In this document: piece by piece, positions 24,937 to 55,900 of the stretch
How positions within the stretch are numbered: position 1 is the first letter of the stretch
Layout of the letters: each line of letters begins with the position of its first letter
Origin: Raja brachyura
Lineage: Eukaryota
Direction: 5' to 3'
Length of the DNA stretch: 64,000 nucleotides
NCBI GenBank assembly: GCA_963514005.1
Contig: OY740804.1
Location: forward strand, 19,406,001-19,470,000
The notes under the pieces: generated by a model
Database searches by the model: none
Told to the model about the DNA's origin: nothing
Seen by the model: only the letters and a program-made list of their open reading frames with translations
Translations under genes and position numbers: made by a program

Positions 24937-25035
24937 TGATGATGTGGGTGGCAACAGTGACTAAGATGCCAATCAGAAGCAGGACGGCAGCAATCGTGGC
25001 CCTCAGCCAACATCCACAGAGACAGCTTCTCAACC
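24937..25035 (-). pseudogene. Orphan paralogous TM exon of the SLAM-like gene (GLRSCLCGCWLRATIAAVLLLIGILVTVATHII)
   Basis: 99 nt with AG and GTGAGT sites, alignable to exon 4; flanking intron 25036-25185 aligns to 41793-41945. Confidence 0.85.
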
Positions 25036-25169: not shown

Positions 25170-26326
25170 AGCATGGACTGAACACTGCTGCAGAGTGCCT
25201 TGTCAAGATCAACGGCTCTTTGTTGGCCCCCATTCACTTTGGGAGGGGGTTAGTCAGGGATGTTCCATTTCCGGCCAGCAATATTCTATCTGTGTGGAGC
25301 CATTCCTGTGCCTCCTCTGGAGGCGGTTGGCAGAACTGGTTTTGCAGGGGCCGGGGGTGGAGGTGGTTCTCTCAGCCTACGCTGATGACGTTCTTCTAAA
25401 GTTCACCGACCATGTTGACCTGCGGAGGATGCGTGAGTGCCAGCAGTTTTTCTCAGCTGCGTCCTCCGCCAGGATCAATTGGGGAAGTGTTCTGGTCTCA
25501 TGGTGGGTCGGTGGCAGGTGGACTCCCTGCCGGAGGAGGTGGCAGGTTTTGCGTGGATGCCCAGTGTACCGTTCAGTGACGCGAAGAGGCGCGCGTTGTG
25601 CAGGTCGCTCCTGCACACTCTGCACATCCTCGCCCTCGTCTTCCGTCCAGACACACCCTGGCGGTCCGTGTTACCACCTGTCGGCGGGAGCGGTCCACAG
25701 TGGAGGTCTCTCTACAAGGGAGTCCTCCCCCTTTACATCGGGGACCTGGGGTGGAGAGTGTTGCACAAAGCCGTGGCCTGCAACAGGTACTTGAGCCGGT
25801 TCACAGACTCGTCCGCCGCCTGTCACTTCTGCGGCGAGGAGGAGTCTGTGTACCATTTGTACACGCAGTGTGAGAGGTTGCAGCCCCTGTTCGAGTATCT
25901 GATGGGGTTGCTCCTCAAGTTTTGGCTCCATTTTAGTCCAACACTATTTATTTTTGGGCACCCGGTACAGAGGGGGGAGGGTCGGGAGGGAGGAGGGGGT
26001 CTCCCTGTCGGTCTGCTCCTGGGCCTGGCCAAGATGGCCATTCGCGGGTCCAGGCAGCGGGCAGTCGACGGCCGCACAGCAGTCTGCCCCTTTTCCGGGG
26101 TTATGTACGTGCTCGCGTGTCCCTGGAGAGGGAACACGCGGTGTCCACAGGGACTGTGGAGGCCTTCTGTGAACGCTGGTCACCGCAGGAGGTGGAATGC
26201 ATTATTGATAGAAATGTTAATATTTTTATTTGATAATTTTCTTTGTAAGATGCCAATATAGGCATTCTTTGATTGTGTTACTACTTGTATTTGTTTGTTT
26301 TGATTAAAGCATTTTGTAAAAAAAAA
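25170..26326 (+). mobile_element. Tx1-clade LINE, 5'-truncated and internally deleted, copy 1, with poly(A)
   Basis: GVSQGCSISG, SAYADDV, ARINW, then DLGWRVLH..CHFCGEEESVYH..C zinc knuckle. Confidence 0.9.
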
Positions 26327-40701: not shown

Positions 40702-40707
40702 TTTATT
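40702..40707 (-). terminator. Candidate polyadenylation signal of the SLAM-like gene
   Basis: AATAAA on minus strand about 205 nt downstream of the predicted stop. Confidence 0.4.
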
Positions 40708-40911: not shown

Positions 40912-41157
40912 CTAATCCCCTATCGGCATCTCCCTCCCTATCTTCCACCCTTTTTGACCTTCCTGTTCACTTTCCCCCCCATGTTGTGTGATGGGGAAAG
41001 GCAAGGTGGGAGCAAGGAGAGGTGGGATGGGGAGGAAGATGGACGTTGGAGAGGAAGAGAGGGAGAGTGGGAGGTAGGATGGGGAGAAGAAAAGACATAA
41101 GACGTGGTCATTCAGCTTTGTGAAGTCTGCCTCCAGTTCCGGGGACAGGGTGGGAGC
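40912..41157 (-). CDS. CD2/SLAM-family Ig receptor, putative terminal exon 6 (APTLSPELEADFTKL...PIGD*)
   Basis: 91-nt intron with CTGAC branch point and ctttctcccctctgtttccccacAG acceptor; phase 0 matches ORF 40912..41208; AATAAA on minus strand at 40707-40702. The true C-terminus is less certain. Confidence 0.6.
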   Translation of the reverse strand, partial: APTLSPELEADFTKLNDHVLCLFFSPSYLPLSLSSSPTSIFLPIPPLLAPTLPFPITQHGGESEQEGQKGWKIGREMPIGD

Positions 41158-41248
41158 CTGTGGGGAAACAGAGGGGAGAAAGGTCAGTGCACCCTGCGAG
41201 GTATCCAAAGCATAAATTCATCAGTCATTGTGGTCAAGACCCACTCAC

Positions 41249-41283
41249 TGCTGATGGCAACTCAGTGCTGGTACTCGGCTTAT
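41249..41283 (-). CDS. CD2/SLAM-family Ig receptor, exon 5 (cytoplasmic mini-exon NKPSTSTELPSA)
   Basis: tttcttacAG acceptor, 35 nt, GTGAGT donor, phase 1/0, open in the frame continuing from exon 4. Confidence 0.7.
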
Positions 41284-41693
41284 CTGTAAGAAATCGCTGT
41301 CACTCCTCCTCTCTTCAAATCTCTGTAATGTCTAACGGACTTTAGATCCCCCTCTCCTGGGTTCTAGAACCTCATCTCCTGTGTCCTCCACTTTTCTACA
41401 GTCCCAGTCACTGCGACCCTCTCTCCCCTTGGTCACCTTGTCCCTCACTCCCCGCGGTTGCTATATCCTGTCAACACCCCATTATCCCAGTCTCTACCCC
41501 TCTATCAGTCTATTACCCAGTCCGTTGCTGGTCTCTATAGACCCCTGATAGTGTGAGATGAGAAGTGAGGGAATGCAGAGTACAGAGACTCGGGACAGGG
41601 TTATAAATACCACTTACGCCAATCTCCCCCTCACTATTAATGATACCCCAGAAAAGCAGACTTTTACTGGAAACACGTAAAACCAGGACTCAC

Positions 41694-41792
41694 TGATGAT
41701 GTGGACGGCAGCCATGACTGAGAGAAGACATAGGAGCAGGACGGCAGCAATTATGGCCCTCGGCCGACATCCACAGAGATAGCTTCTCTCCC
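41694..41792 (-). CDS. CD2/SLAM-family Ig receptor, exon 4 (transmembrane; GERSYLCGCRPRAIIAAVLLLCLLSVMAAVHII)
   Basis: Pyrimidine tract plus cactAG acceptor, 99 nt, GTGAGT donor, phase 1/1; 21-aa hydrophobic stretch; exon boundaries conserved in the paralogous copy at 24937-25035. Confidence 0.88.
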
Positions 41793-42022
41793 CTAGTGAA
41801 AGAGAGAGAATGACGTTGTAAAATTGGCCCTGGGGATTGTCCAGCAAACTCAGTGACAACTCGGGCTCCTCACTCCATGACAGACTGACATCAAATACCT
41901 GTGACAACACTGTCTGATCACACAATCCAAGGGCATGGGTTAGACATAGCGTGAACCCCAACTGCACTGTCCCCTTAAATATTCCCTGTCCTCTCCTAAC
42001 CCAATTTCACATTGACACTCAC

Positions 42023-42304
42023 CAAACATTGTCTGCTTACAGACGTCCTTCAGCCGAATCTCTGCCGTGCCTTCACTGACCGGGTTCGTGGCCTCACACT
42101 TGTACACAACGTCTCCGACCTCTGCTGTGTGATGAACCTCTACCGTCTCTCCGTGTCCCCTGAGGCGATGGGTGCTGTCGTTTCCCACAGCTTCTCCTCC
42201 CCTCCACCACCTGAAGCTGGTGGGGTCGCTGGAGATCACAGAGCAGGTCAGGGTGCAGATCCTGGTGATGTTCTGAACCACGATGTGTGTTCCTGACACG
42301 GGCT
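42023..42304 (-). CDS. CD2/SLAM-family Ig receptor, exon 3 (IgC2 domain)
   Basis: caatctcAG acceptor, 282 nt open, GTGAGT donor, phase 1/1. EPVS...CTLTC...W...YKCEATNPVS...DVC gives four Cys and the CxxxNPVS motif of SLAM C2 domains; N-glycosylation sequons NIT and NDS. Confidence 0.92.
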
Positions 42305-42899
42305 CTGAGATTGGAACGGAGAGATGAAAGATGAGTAAAGGAGATCTTGTGAACCCAAGGATCCCTAATTCCTATCACCATCAGCCTTGGGTGAAGAATT
42401 TGGGAATTCTCCCCATTTTCAGGTTTTCCTTTCACTTCCGCGAGTGGTCTCAGTGTCCTTTATTCACCCGAGTGTGCTGCAGCTTGGACCTTCCTTGGTT
42501 CTGGCCCAAAGACAACAGCCCTGGGATTGTGATCAGCACTAACCAAGACAGGGATTGTGTGCAGTGTCCTCGAATGAATTGACACAATGCAGATCCTGGG
42601 TCACACCCAGCTCTGCCCATAGAGACATTAATTATCTCACAGAATGGATGTGCAATCAGGAAATTAATTCAGGGATCTAGAGCAACAACTTCACTTTCAC
42701 TGAAAGACATAGATGAACAACGTAGCTGACAGCAAACAAATCACGAGGATCCGGAGATAACAAACTGAGGCACTTAACTGCTCACCAAAATAGGCTCAGA
42801 CCTTGATGAGATAACCCTTTTCTTTTTCCTTTTCACAGTGTGTGAATATTTCATGATTCCACGAGTACATTATTACATTTACCACAATTCAGAAGATTT

Positions 42900-44600
42900 T
42901 TAATCAGCAAACTTCAAATGATAATCCAATTATAATTATCTTGGAAGTACTTGAGCCCCTTTGGCACACTTCATTCTCAGAATGTTTTCCAAGTGCGCTC
43001 TGATAAAGGTGATCCCTCTCCGAGGGCACATGGGCACGGATAAAACCCAGTAGAGGGGCGACCAGTCGCTTGGACAGTGCTCTCAACTCCACTCCCCCTG
43101 GACCCATGAAATGCCACTTTGGACAGGCCAAGAAATGGATTACCTGACTAATCCACCTCCCTCTGCACTGTGTACCCAGAGAATGGTGCTGAAGTGCAAC
43201 CAAAACTTGAGGAGCAGATCCTTCAAATATTTTATCAGGGTCTGCAACCTCTCATCTCCATAAACATGTAGAACACCATCTTCTCCAGACTTTGAAAGTG
43301 GAGGGAGGCTGGCGAATCCATGAACTGGCTTAAAGGTCTGGTACACGACAAAGCTCTGTGTAATTCTCCAGCCCAGGTCGCCACTCCTCCACTTGTGACC
43401 CCATTCTCTCTATTGGATGGCAGGACACACCACCATAGCATATCCAAATGGCACTTGAGGGCAAGGAAATAGAGCATGCAGGAGCAACCTGTACAGGGAA
43501 CAGTATTTCTGAGAAACATTTCATATTGTGTGGGTCTGACTCCTGAGAAAAGATCCAGGAGTTGGATACAATGTGCTAATAAACATTAGACAATAGACAA
43601 TCGGTGGAGGAGTAGGCCATTCGGCCCTTCCAGCCAGCACCGCCATTCAATGTGATCATGGCTGATCATCCCCAATCAGTACCCCGTTCCTGCCTTCTCC
43701 CCATATCCCCTGACTCCGCTATTTTTAAGAGCCCTATCTCGCTCTGTCTTGAAAGCATCCAGAGAACCTGCCTCCACCGCCCTCTGAGGCAGAGAATTCC
43801 ACAGACTAATCTGGCGAAGCAGGGATCAGCGCAGTCAGCATTGCTCCACTCCTGTTAGGTCCCTGGATGTTCTTTGTGACAGAATGTCTACAGACTTTAG
43901 CTACGAGTTCCAAGTGCTTACTCTGTCACTGTCCTGTCTGTCTCTTCCTCTGGCCACCCTCACAGCTGAAGTGCTTTCTCTTGCTGTGCAAGAATGCTCT
44001 GGCTGAAGGCAACCATTTTCCAAACTCTTAATAAGTTAGAAGAACCAAGCAAGTCCCGCAGAGTGACTTGGCTGCTGCTCATCACTGGGATCTACACTCC
44101 TCCTGAAGACAGTGTTCCTGGCCGAACATATATGTTACCAGCACCCACCATCTGGGAGGATGTTCAATGTGAAGGTACTTCTGCAAGTGCAAAGACCTAG
44201 AGTCACCACGTGGGTACAGTCACACACCATTGACTGACCGAACTTCTAAAGAGGAGACTCAGAGCCCCGCAGCAGAGAAACAGTCTTTCCTGTTGCCCCA
44301 GAAGAAATCCACCAACATCCTCTGGTTCTTGGCAGCAAAGGTAAAAGTCAGGGCTAAAATGACCAATCGGTAGCACAACATGAAGGTAACCAACTGGTGT
44401 ATGTCTGGGTAAGTAAACAATTAGAGTAGCCTGGATCTGCACCCTAGCCAGGCAATGACTTTCATCTCCAAGCCCGGCTAGTTCACTGGCCAGATTTTTT
44501 CATTGGGGCTCAGATAGATTTGGGAAAAGGGGTGCATGGTGCTCAAACAATAGGTTGTATCTCCTCCAGCATATCACTGATCTACCAAGAGTCTGATCCC
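42900..44600 (-). mobile_element. Old Tx1-clade remnant in intron 2, interrupted by a CR1 3' end (about 43585-43805)
   Basis: YLKDLLLKFWLHFS matches the 25-27 kb Tx1 copies. Confidence 0.65.
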
Positions 44601-45195
44601 TGGATTAGACCATCCTGAGTTAGATTCAGACTACATTGGAAGCAACAGGCACATTTCTGTTCATTGGATCACACAGCACAGAAACAGGCCCCTCAACCCA
44701 CTATGTCCATTCTTGTCATGGGTAGCTATCTATACTAATCCCAATGATCTGGACTTAGTTAACATCTAAGCCTTGACGATCCCATCTAAATTTCTTACCC
44801 CTATCTTCTCCACAGGCAAAGTTTCCCACTACCTACCAGATATGTCTCATAATTTTGGAAGTTTTGCACTCATCCTCCACTATTCCAAGGATAATTCAGC
44901 ATATCCAGTCTCTCACTGTTGCATTTTACCAAGAGCTCCCCTCTCCCCCATTGTCAATGCAGAACGCTCTGCCCTCAGGAGAGGCCTGATCTTATCCCCC
45001 CACATCCACATCTCAGTCTGAGGAAGGGTCCCGACCCGAAATGTTGCTCAACCTTTTTTTTCCAGAGATGCTGCCTGACCCGCTGAGTTACTCCAGCACT
45101 CTTCAGCGGGAAGGTACGGGATCTGCCCCATCCACTAATTAACGCTGTTTCGGGAGCCAGAGAAACTCGGACCCCTCCACAACAGTCTCACTCAC

Positions 45196-45516
45196 CGTAC
45201 ACCTCCAGTCGGATTCCTGACAGAATTTCAGTTCCTGAACGTGTAATAACTGTCACCTCATAATCACCAGCATCCTCTCTCCAGAGATCACGGATTTCCA
45301 GACTTAAACTCTTGGGATGAAAAGTCATCCGTCGCACGTACTCCTCAGTTCCGAAGAATGCAATATTCCCCTTTGAGAATCCCATTATTTTGCTTCTGAG
45401 AGATGTTTTCCTCCACTCAATCTTGCCAATGTCCAGTCCACCTGCAATCTCAGGAGATAAGGAGATCGAGTGCCCCAGTGCTCCATTCACAGTGGGAGGG
45501 AGATCCTCAGTCCCAG
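45196..45516 (-). CDS. CD2/SLAM-family Ig receptor, exon 2 (IgV domain without cysteines)
   Basis: cttccttAG acceptor, 321 nt open, GTGAGT donor, phase 1/1. VNGALGHSISL...IEW...SLEIRDLWREDAGDYEV...LEVY is a V-set fold lacking the canonical disulfide, typical of CD2/SLAM N-terminal domains. Confidence 0.92.
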
Positions 45517-46499
45517 CTAAGGAAGCAAGAGAGGCAGTCAGCAGAAGAGCTCTATGACTAGAGGAGGAGGAGCTAGGAGAGTCAATGAGCACAGGAGCAG
45601 GTCATGTGGCCCATCGCCTGGCTCCTGGCTCCCGGCTCTGTGAGAGACCGGCCCACAGTTCTTACATCACACAGTGAGCCAAAGGGAGGAACAGAGTGAA
45701 GATTCTCCACACCCAGGCCTGAGGAAGGGAGTTACAGCCTACAGCCAGATATCCATCGATGGGTAGGGGGCCATAGATGGGCCTCCGTTCGGAAAAGGGT
45801 AGTTGCATTGGGGAAGTTGAACATTACGAGAAAATGGGGTAAGTGGAAAGAGATGGGCATTATGAAGCTTTCCACTAATAATATCTCATGAACTTTCTTT
45901 ACTCCCCCCACTCCGCCACTTCACCGATTTCTATTTTAAATATCCTCTATATTTACCATACCCCTGAAGCCCTCACCTGCTTTCAATTCTCTGTAGCTGT
46001 CATTTACTCTTTGACTTTCTTTATCCAGCCTTTGATATTTTTGACATCCAGAGTTCATTGCCTTTCACCCAATGGGAACGTTAGACCTGAACTCTCATTA
46101 TTTCACTTCTGAATGATTCCCACTTGTAACACCACACAAGTTGCTCCCAGTGTAGTTTTGCCAGATCCAATCTCATGATATTGAAATCACATTCCCCAAT
46201 CTGTATTCCTTCCCATAACCATCAAAAAAACGTACAGTCTTTTGGTGACTGTTAAAGCTCCCCTGGACTCACTTTAAAAGCTACCCACATCTTTGCCTTT
46301 CACACCAATAAGATCTCAACAATGCTGGAGAAGATGAAATCCCATCTGACAAGGAGGCCCATGGCAACTGGGATCAAGCAAATCCCTGAGATATATTAGA
46401 GTGCGCTGAAGCGGGAAATCAGGGGGCAAAAAAAGGACATGAGCAAGCTCTCGGCAGACAATCATGGAAATTCATATATAATCAAACTATACCCGAGGA

Positions 46500-47680
46500 C
46501 GGCAAAGAGAAAAATATTAGTGGGCCGAATATAGTTCTTAGCTTTATAGCATTACAGTTTCAGAGAAAATGTCCAATGTCCACAATAAGACAGGCTGGAG
46601 GCATGGGATTGCACCCTAGTTTATGGGAGAATTATTCCAATGTTTGATAACAGAGGGGAAGAAGCATTACAAAGGAAAGAAAAAAATAAAATTTACTCTA
46701 AATTGTAATCCTTACTTATTTTACATTTTAATCATTTTACATTATAATCCTTAATTATTTTACATTTTAAGGCTTTTTTGAAACTCAACAGAGAGCTACA
46801 AAATTTCCATAATAAGAGCCCGTTCCATAATTTGACTCCCAAAACTGAGACACATCTATATTTTACATTGGTTCTCACTGTATATGTTTCAAAAATACAC
46901 AACCCTCTTAAATTATAATGTCCGTCTCTTAATTTAATTAGTTTTTAATACTAACAGGAAGGCTTTTATTCCTAACTTGGAAAAGTATTTCTAATGTGTT
47001 TACATGAGCAATATCCAAAAATGTTAAGGTACGAATGATGGATTCGTAGTTTCATGGTATGAAGCTTTATGTATTATTCTAAAAGCTCTTTTCCGGAGTT
47101 TAATTATAGGGTCTATCTTTGTTTGATATACATTTCCCCAAATACAATATGATATATATGGCATTATAAGCGAGCAATATAATATATACAAACACTTCTT
47201 ATTCAACAGATCCTTTGTTTTGTAAAGAATAGCAATGGATTTAGATAATTCCCATTTGATGTATTCTATATGTGGCTTCCAACAAAGTTTATGATCTATA
47301 ATTACTCCCAGGAATTTTGTTTGATGTACTCTTTCAATTTAAACTCCATTTAAATTCAATTTTATTTCACAATTAACCCTGTCACCACCAAACACCATAG
47401 ATTTTGTTTGATTTTCATTAAGGGATCATTTATAAATATCAAACCATTTTTTTAGCACTATCAATTCTCTTTCTGCTGTTTTCAATAGTTCTTTTATATC
47501 ATTCCCCAGAACAAAATACATTTGTATCATCCGCAAATGTAACAAACTTCAACGTATTGGATACTTTACAAATATTATTTAAATAAAGTATAAATAGGTC
47601 CCAGTACTGAACCTTGTGGAACACCACAGGTTACTCTTCTAAGCTGTGATTCAGTATTATTAATTTTTAATGAGTACAAT
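46500..47680 (-). mobile_element. L2/Crack-like LINE RT fragment in intron 1
   Basis: GVPQGSVLG (about 47625), FADDT (about 47530), LYILYCSLIMPYISYC. Confidence 0.75.
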
Positions 47681-48417
47681 AACAAGTACAATAACAATAT
47701 TGAAAAGACATTTGGACATGTATGTGGATAGGAAATGTTTAGTGAGGTAATGGAAAGTCACGGGCAAATGGGTGACACATCATGGTCAGCATAGACGAGT
47801 TTGACTGAAAGGGCCTGTTTTCATGCTGTATGATTATGACATCAGTAGACCCAGCATTAATTCCTGTGTGTACACAGCTAGTCACAAACCTCCAATCTGA
47901 AAAGTAGCTCTTTGCTCCCACCAGCTAACTCCTTTTTACATAACAACTAGAAATCCATTTGGTTAGCTGACCTTGACTTCCATGTGATCTAAACCTCTGG
48001 ACTTACCTACTATACAGGACCATGTGAAAGGCCTTGTTAAAGTCCATTCAGACAACGGCCACCACCCTGTCCTCATTTTGGTGACCTCTTAAAAAAAATT
48101 GAGAGATGTGATTACCCACACACACAGCCAGGGTGACCCTATTCAGTCCTGCTGACTATTGGGATGCCAATTATAAATCTATGTGCAAGGTCCCCGAAAG
48201 GTCTACGAAGAAGAAAAACCCACATGGATTCATTCAAAGAGCCTTCTATGGTATGCTCCCTCAGTGGACCCCTGAACTAATATTGCAATCTGCTCCTCTT
48301 TTAAATCCTCCTTCCCCATCACGCTTGAAGAGTTTAGTTCCAGTTCTGGAAAATAGAAATAAATCCACTCAGAGAGGGGGAAATGAAATAAAATGACTCG
48401 CTCAGAATGAAACTCAC

Positions 48418-48472
48418 GGATTGAGCCGGGGAGAGACAGCCAGAAGCAGATGAGCAGGCACCAAACATCCAT
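48418..48472 (-). CDS. CD2/SLAM-family Ig receptor, exon 1 (signal peptide MDVWCLLICFWLSLPGSI)
   Basis: ATG at 48472; 55 nt hydrophobic leader followed by GTGAGT donor (48417-48412); phase 1, compatible with exon 2. Confidence 0.85.
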
Positions 48473-48654
48473 CTTTTTCTCAGCAACCAGTGTGAAGTAG
48501 ACACCTGATCTGTCCCGATAGACACCTTCTCTCTTCAGTAAAGTTGTCAAACTCCTGGACTCACACAAGGATGGAATTGGTGCAGTGGAGCAATGGGAGA
48601 GAGGACAGAGGGCGACTTCTCTCAGTCTCAACGCCCTTCCTATCCCGCTGCTTC

Positions 48655-52900: not shown

Positions 52901-55900
52901 TCCCAAATAAAACTATAAATAATATTATCTATTTTTTTAAAAAAGGTCTTTGGGAGAAAAAAAGGAATAGCCTGGAACAAATATAATAATTGTGGTAAAA
53001 ACACCATCTTTATAGCGTTTATTCTACCAATCATGGATATAGGAAGTGTTTTCCAGTACAAAATATTTTTTTAAAGTTTATCTAATAATAGAGGGTAATT
53101 AGATTTAATTAGTGAATTATAAGATTTGGTTACATTAATTCCTAAATATTTAAATTTGTCTTTAACTATTTTTAACGAATATTGTTGTAATATATTTAAG
53201 TTAATTTCTGTTATAGGCATAATTTCACTTTTATTCCAGTTAATTCTAAATCCTGCAAAATGTGCCAAAGATAGTTATAACATTGAGTAACTTAGGTAAA
53301 CTAATTTCCAGTTTTGTAATATAAATCAAAACATCATCTGCATATAAAGATATTTTGTTAGTTGTTGTGTCAGTATTATAGCCATAGATTTCAGGTTCTG
53401 ATCTGATTCTTTCCGCCAAAGGCTCTATCATCAAAGCAAATAATAAAGGCGATAACGAACAACCCTGTCTACAACCCCTAGAGAGCTTAAATTTAGCTGA
53501 TAATATTTGATTAGTTAAGATTCTTGCCGTTGGATTCAAATATAAAATTCTTATCCATTTACAAAATCTATCCCCCAATTGAAACTTTTCCATTATATTA
53601 AATAAATATAACCATTCCACCTGATCGAATGCCTTTTCTGCATCTAGCGAGACAACTGCTAATTCCCTGTCCCGTACTCTTTTTGAATATATAATATTAA
53701 ACAAGCGTCTGAGATTATGAGATGAGTAGCGTTTTGGGATAAAACCTGTTTGATCTTGATGTATTAATTTAGAAATCACCAAACTTAATCTCCGAGATAA
53801 AACTTTCGTTAGTATTTTTTGGTCTGTATTTAGAAGTGCGATCGCTCTATATGATCCTGGATCTTCCAAATCCTTATCTGCCTTAGGAATAAGTGTAATT
53901 GTAGATTCGTTTAAAGATTCTGGTAGTTTACCTTGTTCATATGCATATCTATATACTGTATATAATCTTGGGGAAATCAGATCTAGAAATTTTTTATAAA
54001 ATTCTGCACTTAGGCCATCGGGGCCCGCTGCTTTTCCATTCTTTAACGAACTAATTGATTCTTCAATATCTTTTACTGTTATTTCGGCGTTTAACAAATG
54101 TCTACCTTCCTGATCTAAACTGTTAATTTGACACTTTTGTAGAAATGTTTCCATATCCACTGTTTGTCCTGTTAATTTAGATGAATAAAGATTTTGATAA
54201 TATTGTAGAAATCTGTCATTAATATCTTTTGGTATCGTCAATATATTTCCATCCACCGATCTAATTCTATGTATCAATTTTTCATCCTCTAATTTTCTAA
54301 GTTGTCTTGCTAATAGTTTTTGTGGTTTGTCTCCAAACTCGAAATGCACTTGTTTGGTTTGTTGAAATAGTTTAATGATTTGGTTAGAATATATTTTATT
54401 TAGTCTATATTTTGCTATTGCAATTTTGTTACTTAGCTCTTTAGAAGGGCGTTTTATATTTTCACTATCTAGTTGTTTTATCTCGTGTTCTAACTTTTGT
54501 TCCATCTTTCTATTTTCTTTATTAAGATAAGCCTGTGCAGATATTATTGCACCACGCATAAATGCTTTAAATGTGTCCCAGAGTAACGATGGTGAAGTTT
54601 CCGGTTTGTCATTAGTTTCAAAAAATAATTTAATCTGTTCCGTCACATGTTTACAACAGTCCTTATCCTTTAATATCTGGGGATTAAATCTCCAAGTAGT
54701 CGTTTTATTAAGTATATCTTTTAGTTTTATCTTAAATGTAAGAGGCGCGTGATCTGAAATAATAATATTGTGATATTTTGCGTCATACGTAAAAGGTAGT
54801 AATTTTGAATCTATTAAAAAATAATCTATCCTAGAATAAGTTCCGTGTACGGGCGAAAAAAACGAGTATTCTCGTCCGGATGGATTATCTAATCTCCAAA
54901 TATCCTTAACATTCGATGTATTAATAAAATAATTTATAAGTTTACTTGAATTAGAGGTAACTTTCCTTTTTGTAGAAGACCTGTCTAGGTAGCTATCTAA
55001 GGTGCAATTAAAGTCACCCCCAATAACTAAATTATATTGTGTGGAAATAGGAATATTATTAAATATTTTCTTAAAAAATAGTGGGTTATCAAAATTAGGG
55101 GCATATATATTCACCAAAATTACTTTCTGTGAATATAATTCCCCTGTAATTATTACATATCTACCCTCTTTGTCCTCTATTATAGAATTTTGTTTAAAAG
55201 GTATACCTTTACTGATAATTATTGCAACTCCTCTAGATTTGTGTGTAAATGAAGAGTGATATACCTTGGAAATCCATTTCGCTGTTAATCTATATTGAGC
55301 ATCTCTTTTGAGATGAGTCTCTTGGAGGAAGATCACGTCTGATTTCAATCTATTCAACTGTGCTAGTACCTTTCCCCTTTTAATTGGTTCATTAATTCCC
55401 TTAACATTCCAACTACAGAAGGTAATTCCACCCCCCCCCCCCGGTCTTCACATTCATATCTTGCATTTTACTATTAGGGTGGGTTTTTTTGGAGTAGCCT
55501 TCTCGACCCCTCCAGCCCAGCGGTATACCCAAACGCCAATCCGATGAGAATTTCTATCTTCAGTAATCCATATACATATCTTCTTAGAGCGATTATACAA
55601 TATCGTTCATAACTACATTCATATAATATATAACGCAGAATCAAATATTTAATATATAAGAAAAAGTACAAAGTGTAATTAAAAAAAGAGAAAGGGGTGT
55701 TAACAGGGTGCCCAGAAAAAAAAGAAACTACACTGGTATAGTGTGTAGTGTGCATTAGTGAAAGCCACACTAACGTGGCTATTAATCTACTGACTTCCGT
55801 TTTTTTAAGAAAAGAGATGTTAAATGTTCCAGCTCCTGTCTATAATACTATGTATATTGGGGTGGGGTACTAACTTTAAGTACTTAGTAAATATTTCTAT

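What the first reader, a model, noticed from the sequence alone, without database searches (positions are those of the whole stretch)
40912..48472. Intact six-exon CD2/SLAM-family receptor hidden among retroelements, with no tyrosine signalling motif
Seen: six minus-strand exons (55, 321, 282, 99, 35 and 246 nt) with canonical splice sites and matching phases splice into one open frame of about 345 aa, which the ORF track shows only as fragments. Known: a Cys-less V plus 4-Cys C2 with CxxxNPVS defines the CD2/SLAM family, and most signalling SLAMs carry ITSM (TxYxxV/I). Seen: the predicted tail has no ITSM or ITIM. Inference: a lineage-specific cartilaginous-fish immune receptor that must signal another way or act as a ligand/decoy.
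Basis: partly seen in the sequence, partly recalled or inferred. Interest (0 to 1): 0.75.

Follow-up and report, generated by a model that had tools for sequence, protein, structure and literature searches.

The report
Short-tailed skate SLAM receptor, charged anchor

Summary
The gene is real and is CD2/SLAM family, but the six-exon, 345-aa model is wrong at its end. Homologues splice the membrane exon straight to the 41157 acceptor in another frame, giving five exons, 268 aa and a tyrosine-free 16-residue tail.

Lacking an ITSM is ordinary: SLAMF2, 8 and 9 lack it. What stands out is the membrane segment: Cys at -3, Arg/Lys at 0, His at +19. It occurs in 17 homologues from 12 shark and ray species and never with an ITSM-like tail (0 of 18, against 30 of 63 others). 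Ectodomains of this type and of ITSM-bearing paralogues are intermingled in the tree (one clade rejected), which is the paired-receptor pattern. Two turtle-type Ly9-like proteins share the layout.

Best reading (0.5): the adaptor-coupled member of a paired family, working like Xenopus NxxR-type SLAMs but not matching NxxR. Main rival (0.3): ligand or decoy. No RNA or binding data exist here.

The parts
48418..48472 (-). Exon 1, signal peptide (55 nt, ATG at 48472)
   Evidence: GT donor, phase 1. P0011, P0020 and P0021 start at the same Met.
45196..45516 (-). Exon 2, V-type Ig domain without Cys (321 nt)
   Evidence: Pfam V-set 2.7e-7. Best PDB hits are CD2, SLAMF6 and CD84. 91% to Amblyraja P0002, 85% to Rhinoraja P0008.
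42023..42304 (-). Exon 3, C2-type Ig domain with four Cys and two N-glycosylation sequons (282 nt)
41694..41792 (-). Exon 4, Cys-containing stalk and membrane helix (99 nt); Cys228 at 41767-41769, Arg231 at 41758-41760, His250 at 41701-41703
   Evidence: One helix over residues 224-254 in the model of the sawfish relative P0021.
41108..41157 (-). Exon 5, coding part of the true last exon, entered in phase 1; tail ends RLHKAE then TGA
   Evidence: matches 11 of 79 homologues
40702..40707 (-). Nearest AATAAA, about 400 nt after the stop; likely poly(A) signal
   Evidence: its role is inferred
41249..41283 (-).
   Evidence: No homologue has it; weak pyrimidine tract
40912..41107 (-).
36521..36756 (+). 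Inverted, truncated paralogous C2 exon (relic)
   Evidence: 57% aa to exon 3, 81% nt over 297 nt; similarity ends before the fourth Cys
24937..25035 (-). Orphan paralogous membrane exon of the same type, open, with AG/GT sites; no V, C2 or last exon of its own found in the window
   Evidence: 86% to Rhinoraja P0010
43547..47978 (.). High-copy repeats in introns 1 and 2 (bins 43547-43823, 44932-45208, 46317-47978)
   Evidence: Contig pile-up; self-matches in the window

Best explanation
A 268-aa type I CD2/SLAM-family receptor (leader, Cys-less V, four-Cys C2, Cys stalk, membrane helix, 16-residue tail). It is the tail-less member of a paired family in sharks and rays.

Shown: the gene structure by homology; no tyrosine in the tail; a membrane segment with Cys at -3, Arg/Lys at 0 and His at +19 conserved across elasmobranchs; paralogues with one or two TxYxxV/I/L motifs; ectodomains of the two types intermingled in the tree.

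Inferred: (1) the V domain binds a SLAM-type or microbial ligand; (2) the basic residue at the outer end of the helix pairs with the aspartate of an ITAM-bearing dimer of the CD3-zeta/FcR-gamma family; (3) that adaptor delivers an activating signal, balancing paralogues that signal through their own switch motifs; (4) skipping the membrane exon gives an in-frame soluble form.
For: - Class defined by last exon alone: 18 proteins, 15 with the membrane exon. All 15 have Cys at -3 and Arg/Lys at 0, and 14 have His at +19.
- In sharks the Lys has hydrophobic residues on both sides.
- 0 of 18 motif-bearing proteins have a TxYxxV/I/L tail, against 30 of 63 other membrane-bearing relatives (Fisher p 7e-5, rows not independent).
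- Few basic residues follow the helix: mean 1.6 in 10 residues, against 3.6 in ITSM types.
- Short-tail ectodomains are not one clade: 12 against 20 rows, lnL 346 lower, p-AU 4e-49, 7 changes (quick tree, run after I had seen the tree).
- Within-species pairs of short and ITSM types share 81-95% ectodomain identity: P0017/P0035 95, P0010/P0029 89, P0022/P0046 86, P0020/P0039 82, P0021/P0048 81.
- Three homologues skip the membrane exon in frame (P0034, P0042, P0082).
- Precedent: Arg near the outer end of the helix plus a short tail marks FcR-gamma-coupled paired receptors, shown by co-transfection for Xenopus XFL (PMC2413239, section 6 and passages). Such helices occur in Xenopus CD2/SLAM genes (PMC4536121 and PMC6557307, passages).
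Against: - The NxxR signature is not met: Cys replaces Asn, and the upstream DYT consensus and the acidic residue at the inner end are absent (features from PMC6557307). In Xenopus TM1 genes helix and tail share one exon; here they do not.
- A 2014 survey found no FcR-gamma homologue in the shark genomes screened (PMC4016189, passages). I did not test which adaptors skates have.
- This gene's own ectodomain has no close ITSM partner in the sample (best 68%).
- It alone among 18 has Pro just before the Arg, which may put the Arg at the membrane surface, where basic residues are common. Several ITSM paralogues also have Lys/Arg next to the helix.
- Conserved positions do not fall on one helix face beyond chance (p 0.25-0.83).
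- No expression or binding data.
Confidence: 0.5

Rival explanations
1. A non-signalling ligand, adhesion molecule or decoy, like CD58 or CD48. It engages ITSM-bearing paralogues on other cells, the soluble isoform acts as a buffer, and the Arg/Lys and His only set the helix in the membrane.
For: Tail of 16 residues with no motif. CD48/CD2 and CD58 structures are among the top fold matches. Soluble isoforms exist in three homologues. NxxR is not met. The same option is left open for SLAMF9 (PMC7078004, passage).
Against: A passive anchor would hardly keep Cys-3, Arg/Lys0, Leu+8, Leu+11 and His+19 from sixgill sharks to skates while the ectodomain turns over. The last exon is also conserved across rays.
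Confidence: 0.3
2. The conserved stalk cysteines and membrane residues make a disulfide-linked homodimer, or a covalent pair with another receptor chain, that modulates that partner without an ITAM adaptor.
For: Two to three Cys lie in the stalk of the ray proteins, and the one at -3 is invariant in 15 of 15.
Against: The window's protein and several sharks have Tyr at the first stalk Cys. A homodimer alone does not explain the basic residue. This reading is compatible with the best explanation, not exclusive of it.
Confidence: 0.1
3. A decaying duplicate in a birth-and-death cluster, no longer functional in this species.
For: Paralogue debris lies nearby. The window's protein has a unique Pro230. 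About 15% aa divergence from the closest orthologue may not be much below neutral (not tested, no orthologous DNA).
Against: Open frame, canonical splice sites, Ig core residues kept, and a poly(A)-type signal downstream. The related organism's contig over the V exon has 4 differences and no gap. Three near-identical genes exist in Rhinoraja.
Confidence: 0.06
4. The first reader's six-exon form, with a 94-aa Ser/Pro-rich tail, is the main product.
For: The splice sites are canonical and the frame is open.
Against: 0 of 79 homologues match that tail, the acceptor is weak, and all three listed variants in the long frame are non-silent.
Confidence: 0.04

Closest known systems
RefSeq 'SLAM family member 5-like' of Rhinoraja longicauda (XP_078276540.1, XP_078276542.1) and ray relatives P0020-P0024
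   Same: 85% identical over all 268 residues to the Rhinoraja pair, 59-62% to the others; same exons, membrane motif and tail.
   Different: The names are automatic and no function is attached. The window has Tyr at the first stalk Cys and Pro before the Arg.
Xenopus CD2/SLAM and FcR-like (XFL TM1) receptors with NxxR helices; mammalian LILRA2, GPVI, OSCAR, NKp46, Fc-alpha-R
   Same: Basic residue at the outer end of the helix, very short tail, paired with tyrosine-motif paralogues (PMC2413239, PMC4536121, PMC6557307; passages).
   Different: Cys instead of Asn at -3, no DYT, His instead of an acidic residue at the inner end, tail on its own exon. Coupling is shown for XFL and untested here.
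Mammalian SLAMF8 and SLAMF9
   Same: V + C2 + helix with a short tail and no ITSM; how SLAMF9 signals is open, ligand or adaptor (PMC6963180, PMC7078004; passages).
   Different: Their tails are Lys/Arg-rich; this one has three basic residues and none directly after the helix. Orthology was not tested. That SLAMF9 has a Cys and a Lys at the outer end of its helix is my recall and comes from no call.
CD58 and CD48
   Same: Same ectodomain fold (TM by target 0.81-0.83); act as ligands.
   Different: CD48 is GPI-anchored and CD58 has no such conserved charged helix (both recalled, not tested).
Turtle Ly9-like P0185 (Trachemys, XP_034612318.1) and unnamed P0158
   Same: Cys-3, Lys/Arg0, Leu+8, Leu+11, His+19 and a short tail.
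   Different: Four Ig domains, 24-26% ectodomain identity. Shared ancestry versus convergence is open.

Membership tests
CD2/SLAM family | N-terminal V domain without the B-F disulfide | tested here: met
   No Cys in exon 2; V-set; top PDB hits CD2, SLAMF6, CD84. The feature itself is established knowledge, recalled.
CD2/SLAM family | C2 domain with four Cys | tested here: met
   Cys 142, 146, 195, 214. The last is matched by Cys in 13 of 13 non-CEACAM rows and not reached in 11 of 11 CEACAM rows. The disulfides themselves were not examined.
CD2/SLAM family | Two-domain fold closest to CD2-family structures | tested here: met
   Model of relative P0021 (62% identical, not the window's protein): ranks 1-8 are SLAMF6, CD48/CD2, CD2 and CD58; CEACAMs start at rank 11. 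The sequence-profile search ranks CD48, SLAMF6, CD2 and CEACAM about equally.
CD2/SLAM family | Clustered with paralogues in a region syntenic to the tetrapod CD2 or SLAM loci | tested here: inconclusive
   Paralogue relics lie in the window, and relatives share one contig per species. There are no neighbour genes in the window and no genome is held.
ITSM-signalling SLAM receptors (SLAMF1, 3-7) | TxYxxV/I in the tail | tested here: not met
   No Tyr in the 16-residue tail; paralogues do have it.
NxxR-helix, FcR-gamma-coupled receptors | Arg near the outer end of the helix with a very short tail | tested here: met
   Arg231 and a 16-residue tail; depth in the bilayer is not known.
NxxR-helix, FcR-gamma-coupled receptors | Asn at -3, upstream DYT, acidic residue at the inner end | tested here: not met
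   Cys at -3 in 18 of 18, His/Gln at +19, no acidic residue; features from PMC6557307.
NxxR-helix, FcR-gamma-coupled receptors | Physical association with FcR-gamma or CD3-zeta | not testable with these tools
Paired receptor family | Similar ectodomains attached to two opposite membrane/tail modules | tested here: met
   Family level: pairs at 81-95%, one clade rejected.
Paired receptor family | This gene has its own near-identical ITSM partner | tested here: inconclusive
   Best in sample 68%; this species' other genes could not be read.
CEACAM | Groups with CEACAM N+A domains; two-Cys C2 | tested here: not met
   Nine amphibian CEACAMs form their own clade (SH-aLRT 99, branch 1.47) apart from the window, and the fourth Cys is absent (unrooted quick tree).
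HEPACAM | Orthology to HEPACAM/HEPACAM2 | not tested
   Some relatives carry automatic HEPACAM-like names; no true HEPACAM sequence was at hand.

The most novel reading that the evidence does not exclude
The Cys-x-x-Arg/Lys ... His helix is an ancient, undescribed adaptor-coupling module of the CD2/SLAM family, separate from NxxR. It has been kept since the common ancestor of jawed vertebrates (sharks, rays, turtles, perhaps mammalian SLAMF9) while ectodomains are swapped between it and ITSM tails. Elasmobranchs would then have a large activating/regulatory SLAM system that couples to CD3-zeta or an unrecognised adaptor, possibly older than FcR-gamma, and SLAMF9's unexplained signalling would have a testable residue.
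Probability: 0.2. Interest if true: 0.72.

Novelty: new variant of a known kind. Interest (0 to 1): 0.42.

Why it matters
The gene alone is a routine member of a known family and is already auto-annotated in other skates. The corrected model matters because it shows that shark and ray SLAM clusters contain two modules: ITSM tails, and a conserved charged helix with almost no tail. That is the layout of paired activating and regulatory receptors, described for this family in Xenopus. If the helix couples to an ITAM adaptor, paired SLAM signalling goes back to the base of jawed vertebrates, in a group where a 2014 survey found no FcR-gamma, FcRL or LRC genes. It also names one residue to mutate, here and possibly in SLAMF9, whose signalling route is open.

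Tried and rejected
- RNA evidence: no RNA holder listed among 6 runs. This is no evidence either way.
- No whole genome is held, so synteny and this species' paralogues and adaptors were not examined.
- Homodimer prediction for the stalk and helix of P0021, two copies: no answer, score 0.02, alignment not used.
- Conservation on one helix face: not significant (p 0.25, 0.32, 0.83).
- A 28-nt candidate micro-exon at 41517-41544 resembled a degenerate motif in Pristis P0003/P0013. The match is four residues at E 0.3-0.5 and no short-tail homologue has it, so I rejected it.
- Further downstream ITSM exons: of 79 relatives, 24 have ITSM-like tails, and none gave a tail hit in the window at E<0.05. 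The strong acceptors from 41693 to 30000 gave no such frame.
- The orphan membrane exon at 24937-25035 as an alternative end of this gene is not excluded, but it lies 16 kb past the AATAAA and has no last exon. It is better explained as a relic of the P0010/P0024-type gene.
- The 1.84-billion-protein search was crowded by giant multi-Ig proteins; only the best 150 of 7361 hits were seen.
- The careful tree did not finish, so quick trees were used.
- The ESM Atlas look-up of the turtle protein gave generic Ig and SLAM clusters only.
- Earlier findings of this scan: none.
- Guselnikov 2011 (PMID 21667045), Sameshima 2012 (PMC3862340) and Guselnikov 2010 (PMC2813978) are not held; only their reference entries were seen.
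Full report
OBSERVATION. They have AG acceptors, GT donors and matching phases, and they join into an open 345-aa frame without ITSM or ITIM. Exon 2 is a V-set domain with no Cys; exon 3 is an Ig domain with Cys at 142, 146, 195 and 214. The rest of the window is mostly retroelement: many of the 35 frames scanned hit RT, endonuclease or zf-RVT families, and repeats pile up in introns 1 and 2. The V exon is 91% identical to an Amblyraja protein and 85% to a Rhinoraja protein, so the source is a skate (inference). No genome is held and no RNA run was listed.

THE END OF THE MODEL IS WRONG. Rhinoraja P0008 and P0012 match the window over the leader, V, C2 and membrane exons. Splicing 41694 directly to 41157 gives five coding exons, 268 aa, a stop ending at 41108 and a 16-residue tail with no tyrosine. 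This protein is 85% identical end to end to P0008/P0012 and 59-62% to sawfish, stingray and manta proteins of 268-272 aa. In contigs of a related organism, the three listed differences in the long frame all change residues and the one in the short frame is silent; only 40 of 246 rows were shown, so this is minor support. An AATAAA lies about 400 nt after the stop. The five-exon model rests on homologous gene models, not on reads from this species.

FAMILY. The V exon's best PDB hits are CD2 (7e-6), SLAMF6 and CD84; CEACAM8 scores 0.55. A model of the sawfish relative P0021 (pLDDT 80.5) matches SLAMF6, CD48/CD2, CD2 and CD58 at ranks 1-8, with CEACAMs from rank 11. The profile search of PDB separates the two families less well, and the C2 exon alone hits CEA first, which shares the CxxxNPVS motif. 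The fourth C2 Cys is matched in 13 of 13 non-CEACAM rows and in none of 11 CEACAM rows, and the nine CEACAMs in the tree form their own long clade. The gene is therefore CD2/SLAM family. No one-to-one orthology with a mammalian SLAMF could be tested, and HEPACAM was not tested.

THE MEMBRANE MODULE. Three protein searches and a cluster look-up gave 99 elasmobranch relatives. Defined by the last exon alone, 18 belong to the short-tail class. Of these, 15 have the membrane exon, all 15 have Cys at -3 and Arg or Lys at 0, and 14 have His at +19; three skip the exon in frame and would be soluble. By the motif, 17 homologues from 12 species plus the window carry it, from sixgill, white, basking and cat sharks to skates, sawfish, stingrays and mantas. 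None of the 18 has a TxYxxV/I/L tail, while 30 of the other 63 membrane-bearing proteins do. Nineteen proteins without a predicted helix were left out, and relatives are not independent. In ectodomain trees the two types are intermingled by lineage, and holding the 12 short-tail rows together against 20 ITSM rows is rejected (p-AU 4e-49; I had seen the tree first). Within-species pairs reach 81-95% ectodomain identity. A conserved membrane module under exchanged or homogenised ectodomains is the pattern of paired receptors. The window's own ectodomain, however, groups only with short-tail Rhinoraja genes, and its best ITSM relative in the sample is 68% identical.

BEYOND ELASMOBRANCHS. Both have Cys-3, Lys/Arg0, Leu+8, Leu+11, His+19 and a short tail. 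No shuffle in 5000 reached their scores. But the strict pattern was written after seeing them, their scores (5.0, -0.5) are only a little above the next (-2.5), and they are far below the training set (51-65). This is a lead, not proof of ancestry.

MECHANISM. Shown: structure, absence of motifs, conservation and pairing. Inferred: adaptor coupling. In mammals and Xenopus, an Arg near the outer end of the helix with a short tail marks receptors that pair with the aspartate of FcR-gamma. This was shown by co-transfection for Xenopus XFL (PMC2413239, section 6 and passages), and such helices are reported in Xenopus CD2/SLAM genes (PMC4536121 and PMC6557307, passages). The skate helix works like these at best; it is not a member. 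Cys replaces Asn, DYT and the inner acidic residue are missing, and the tail has its own exon. Further results against: no FcR-gamma was found in sharks in a 2014 survey (PMC4016189, passages), so CD3-zeta or another chain would be needed (its presence in skates is recalled, not checked); the window's protein has a unique Pro before the Arg; basic residues flank the helix in some ITSM paralogues too; and conservation is not significantly one-sided on the helix. I give adaptor coupling 0.5, ligand/decoy 0.3, covalent dimer without adaptor 0.1, decaying copy 0.06 and the six-exon form 0.04.

SURROUNDINGS. The window holds relics of the cluster: an inverted C2 exon cut before its fourth Cys (36521-36756, +) and an open membrane exon of the same type (24937-25035, -) with only retroelements between them. 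Rhinoraja model P0010 includes the antisense of the inverted piece ahead of an intact gene whose membrane exon is 86% identical to the orphan. The second gene therefore seems to have lost its other exons in this species or in this assembly.

WHAT IS IN PRINT. ITSM-less SLAMs are textbook (PMC6963180, passages), and SLAMF9 signalling is stated to be unresolved (PMC7078004, passages). A nurse shark Slamf6 transcript is mentioned once in PMC10529500 (one passage). PMC11882424 (passages) concerns chicken chB6 and added nothing on fish. PMC8707797 gave a reference entry only. Ten searches of the held library (listings only) showed no paper on this helix type or on paired SLAMs in elasmobranchs; (SLAM family, cartilaginous fish, ITSM) returned 0. 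The library lacks most subscription journals. The three most relevant papers (Guselnikov 2010 and 2011, Sameshima 2012) could not be read, and no supplements or figures were seen, so prior description of this helix in amphibians or fish is not excluded.

VERDICT. A real, intact CD2/SLAM gene with a corrected five-exon structure. The missing ITSM is ordinary. The conserved charged helix and the paired-family pattern make it a new variant of a known kind with a clear test. Interest 0.42.

Noticed in passing
window 24937-25035 (-) and 36521-36756 (+): Orphan open membrane exon and inverted truncated C2 exon, relics of a second cluster gene; the inverted piece also seems present in Rhinoraja, whose model P0010 takes in its antisense.
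   Followed up: partly
P0013, P0053, P0054, P0057, P0068, P0074 (rays), P0099 (catshark): A second group with an Arg inside the outer part of the helix and tails without an intact TxYxxV/I/L; possibly another adaptor-coupled type derived from ITSM genes.
   Followed up: no
P0185, P0158: Turtle-type Ly9-like proteins with the same Cys, Lys/Arg, Leu, Leu, His helix layout and a short tail.
   Followed up: partly
P0187 (Prochilodus), P0233 (sturgeon): Bony-fish SLAM-like proteins with an Arg at the outer end of the helix; P0187 also has a His 18 residues later, P0233 has a TxYxxV tail.
   Followed up: no
P0001, P0016, P0027, P0028, P0030-P0033, P0036-P0038 (mantas, stingrays): Family members built of several tandem V domains, mostly without a C2 domain, with tails lacking tyrosine motifs.
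   Followed up: no
P0034, P0042, P0082, P0136: Annotated isoforms that skip the membrane exon (soluble) or the C2 exon; the phase-1 exon layout of the window gene allows the same skips.
   Followed up: partly
window 53246-55447 (-): A 733-codon open frame with endonuclease and RT domains, the longest LINE remnant in the window; related copies at 31830-34219 and elsewhere.
   Followed up: no
window 25170-27419: Tandem duplication of about 1.1 kb (93% alike) of a GC-rich retroelement piece with RT and zf-RVT hits, directly upstream of the orphan membrane exon.
   Followed up: no
window 48473-48631 (-): Open frame upstream of the ATG. Rhinoraja models P0008/P0012 start 53 codons earlier, at a position that is not ATG here, so their N-terminal extension is probably a prediction artefact.
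   Followed up: partly
window 41885-42438 and 45209-45762: Summed contig depth over the C2 and V exons is about twice that of flanking unique intron in all four runs, as expected if paralogous contigs at 85% or more were laid; not a copy number.
   Followed up: no
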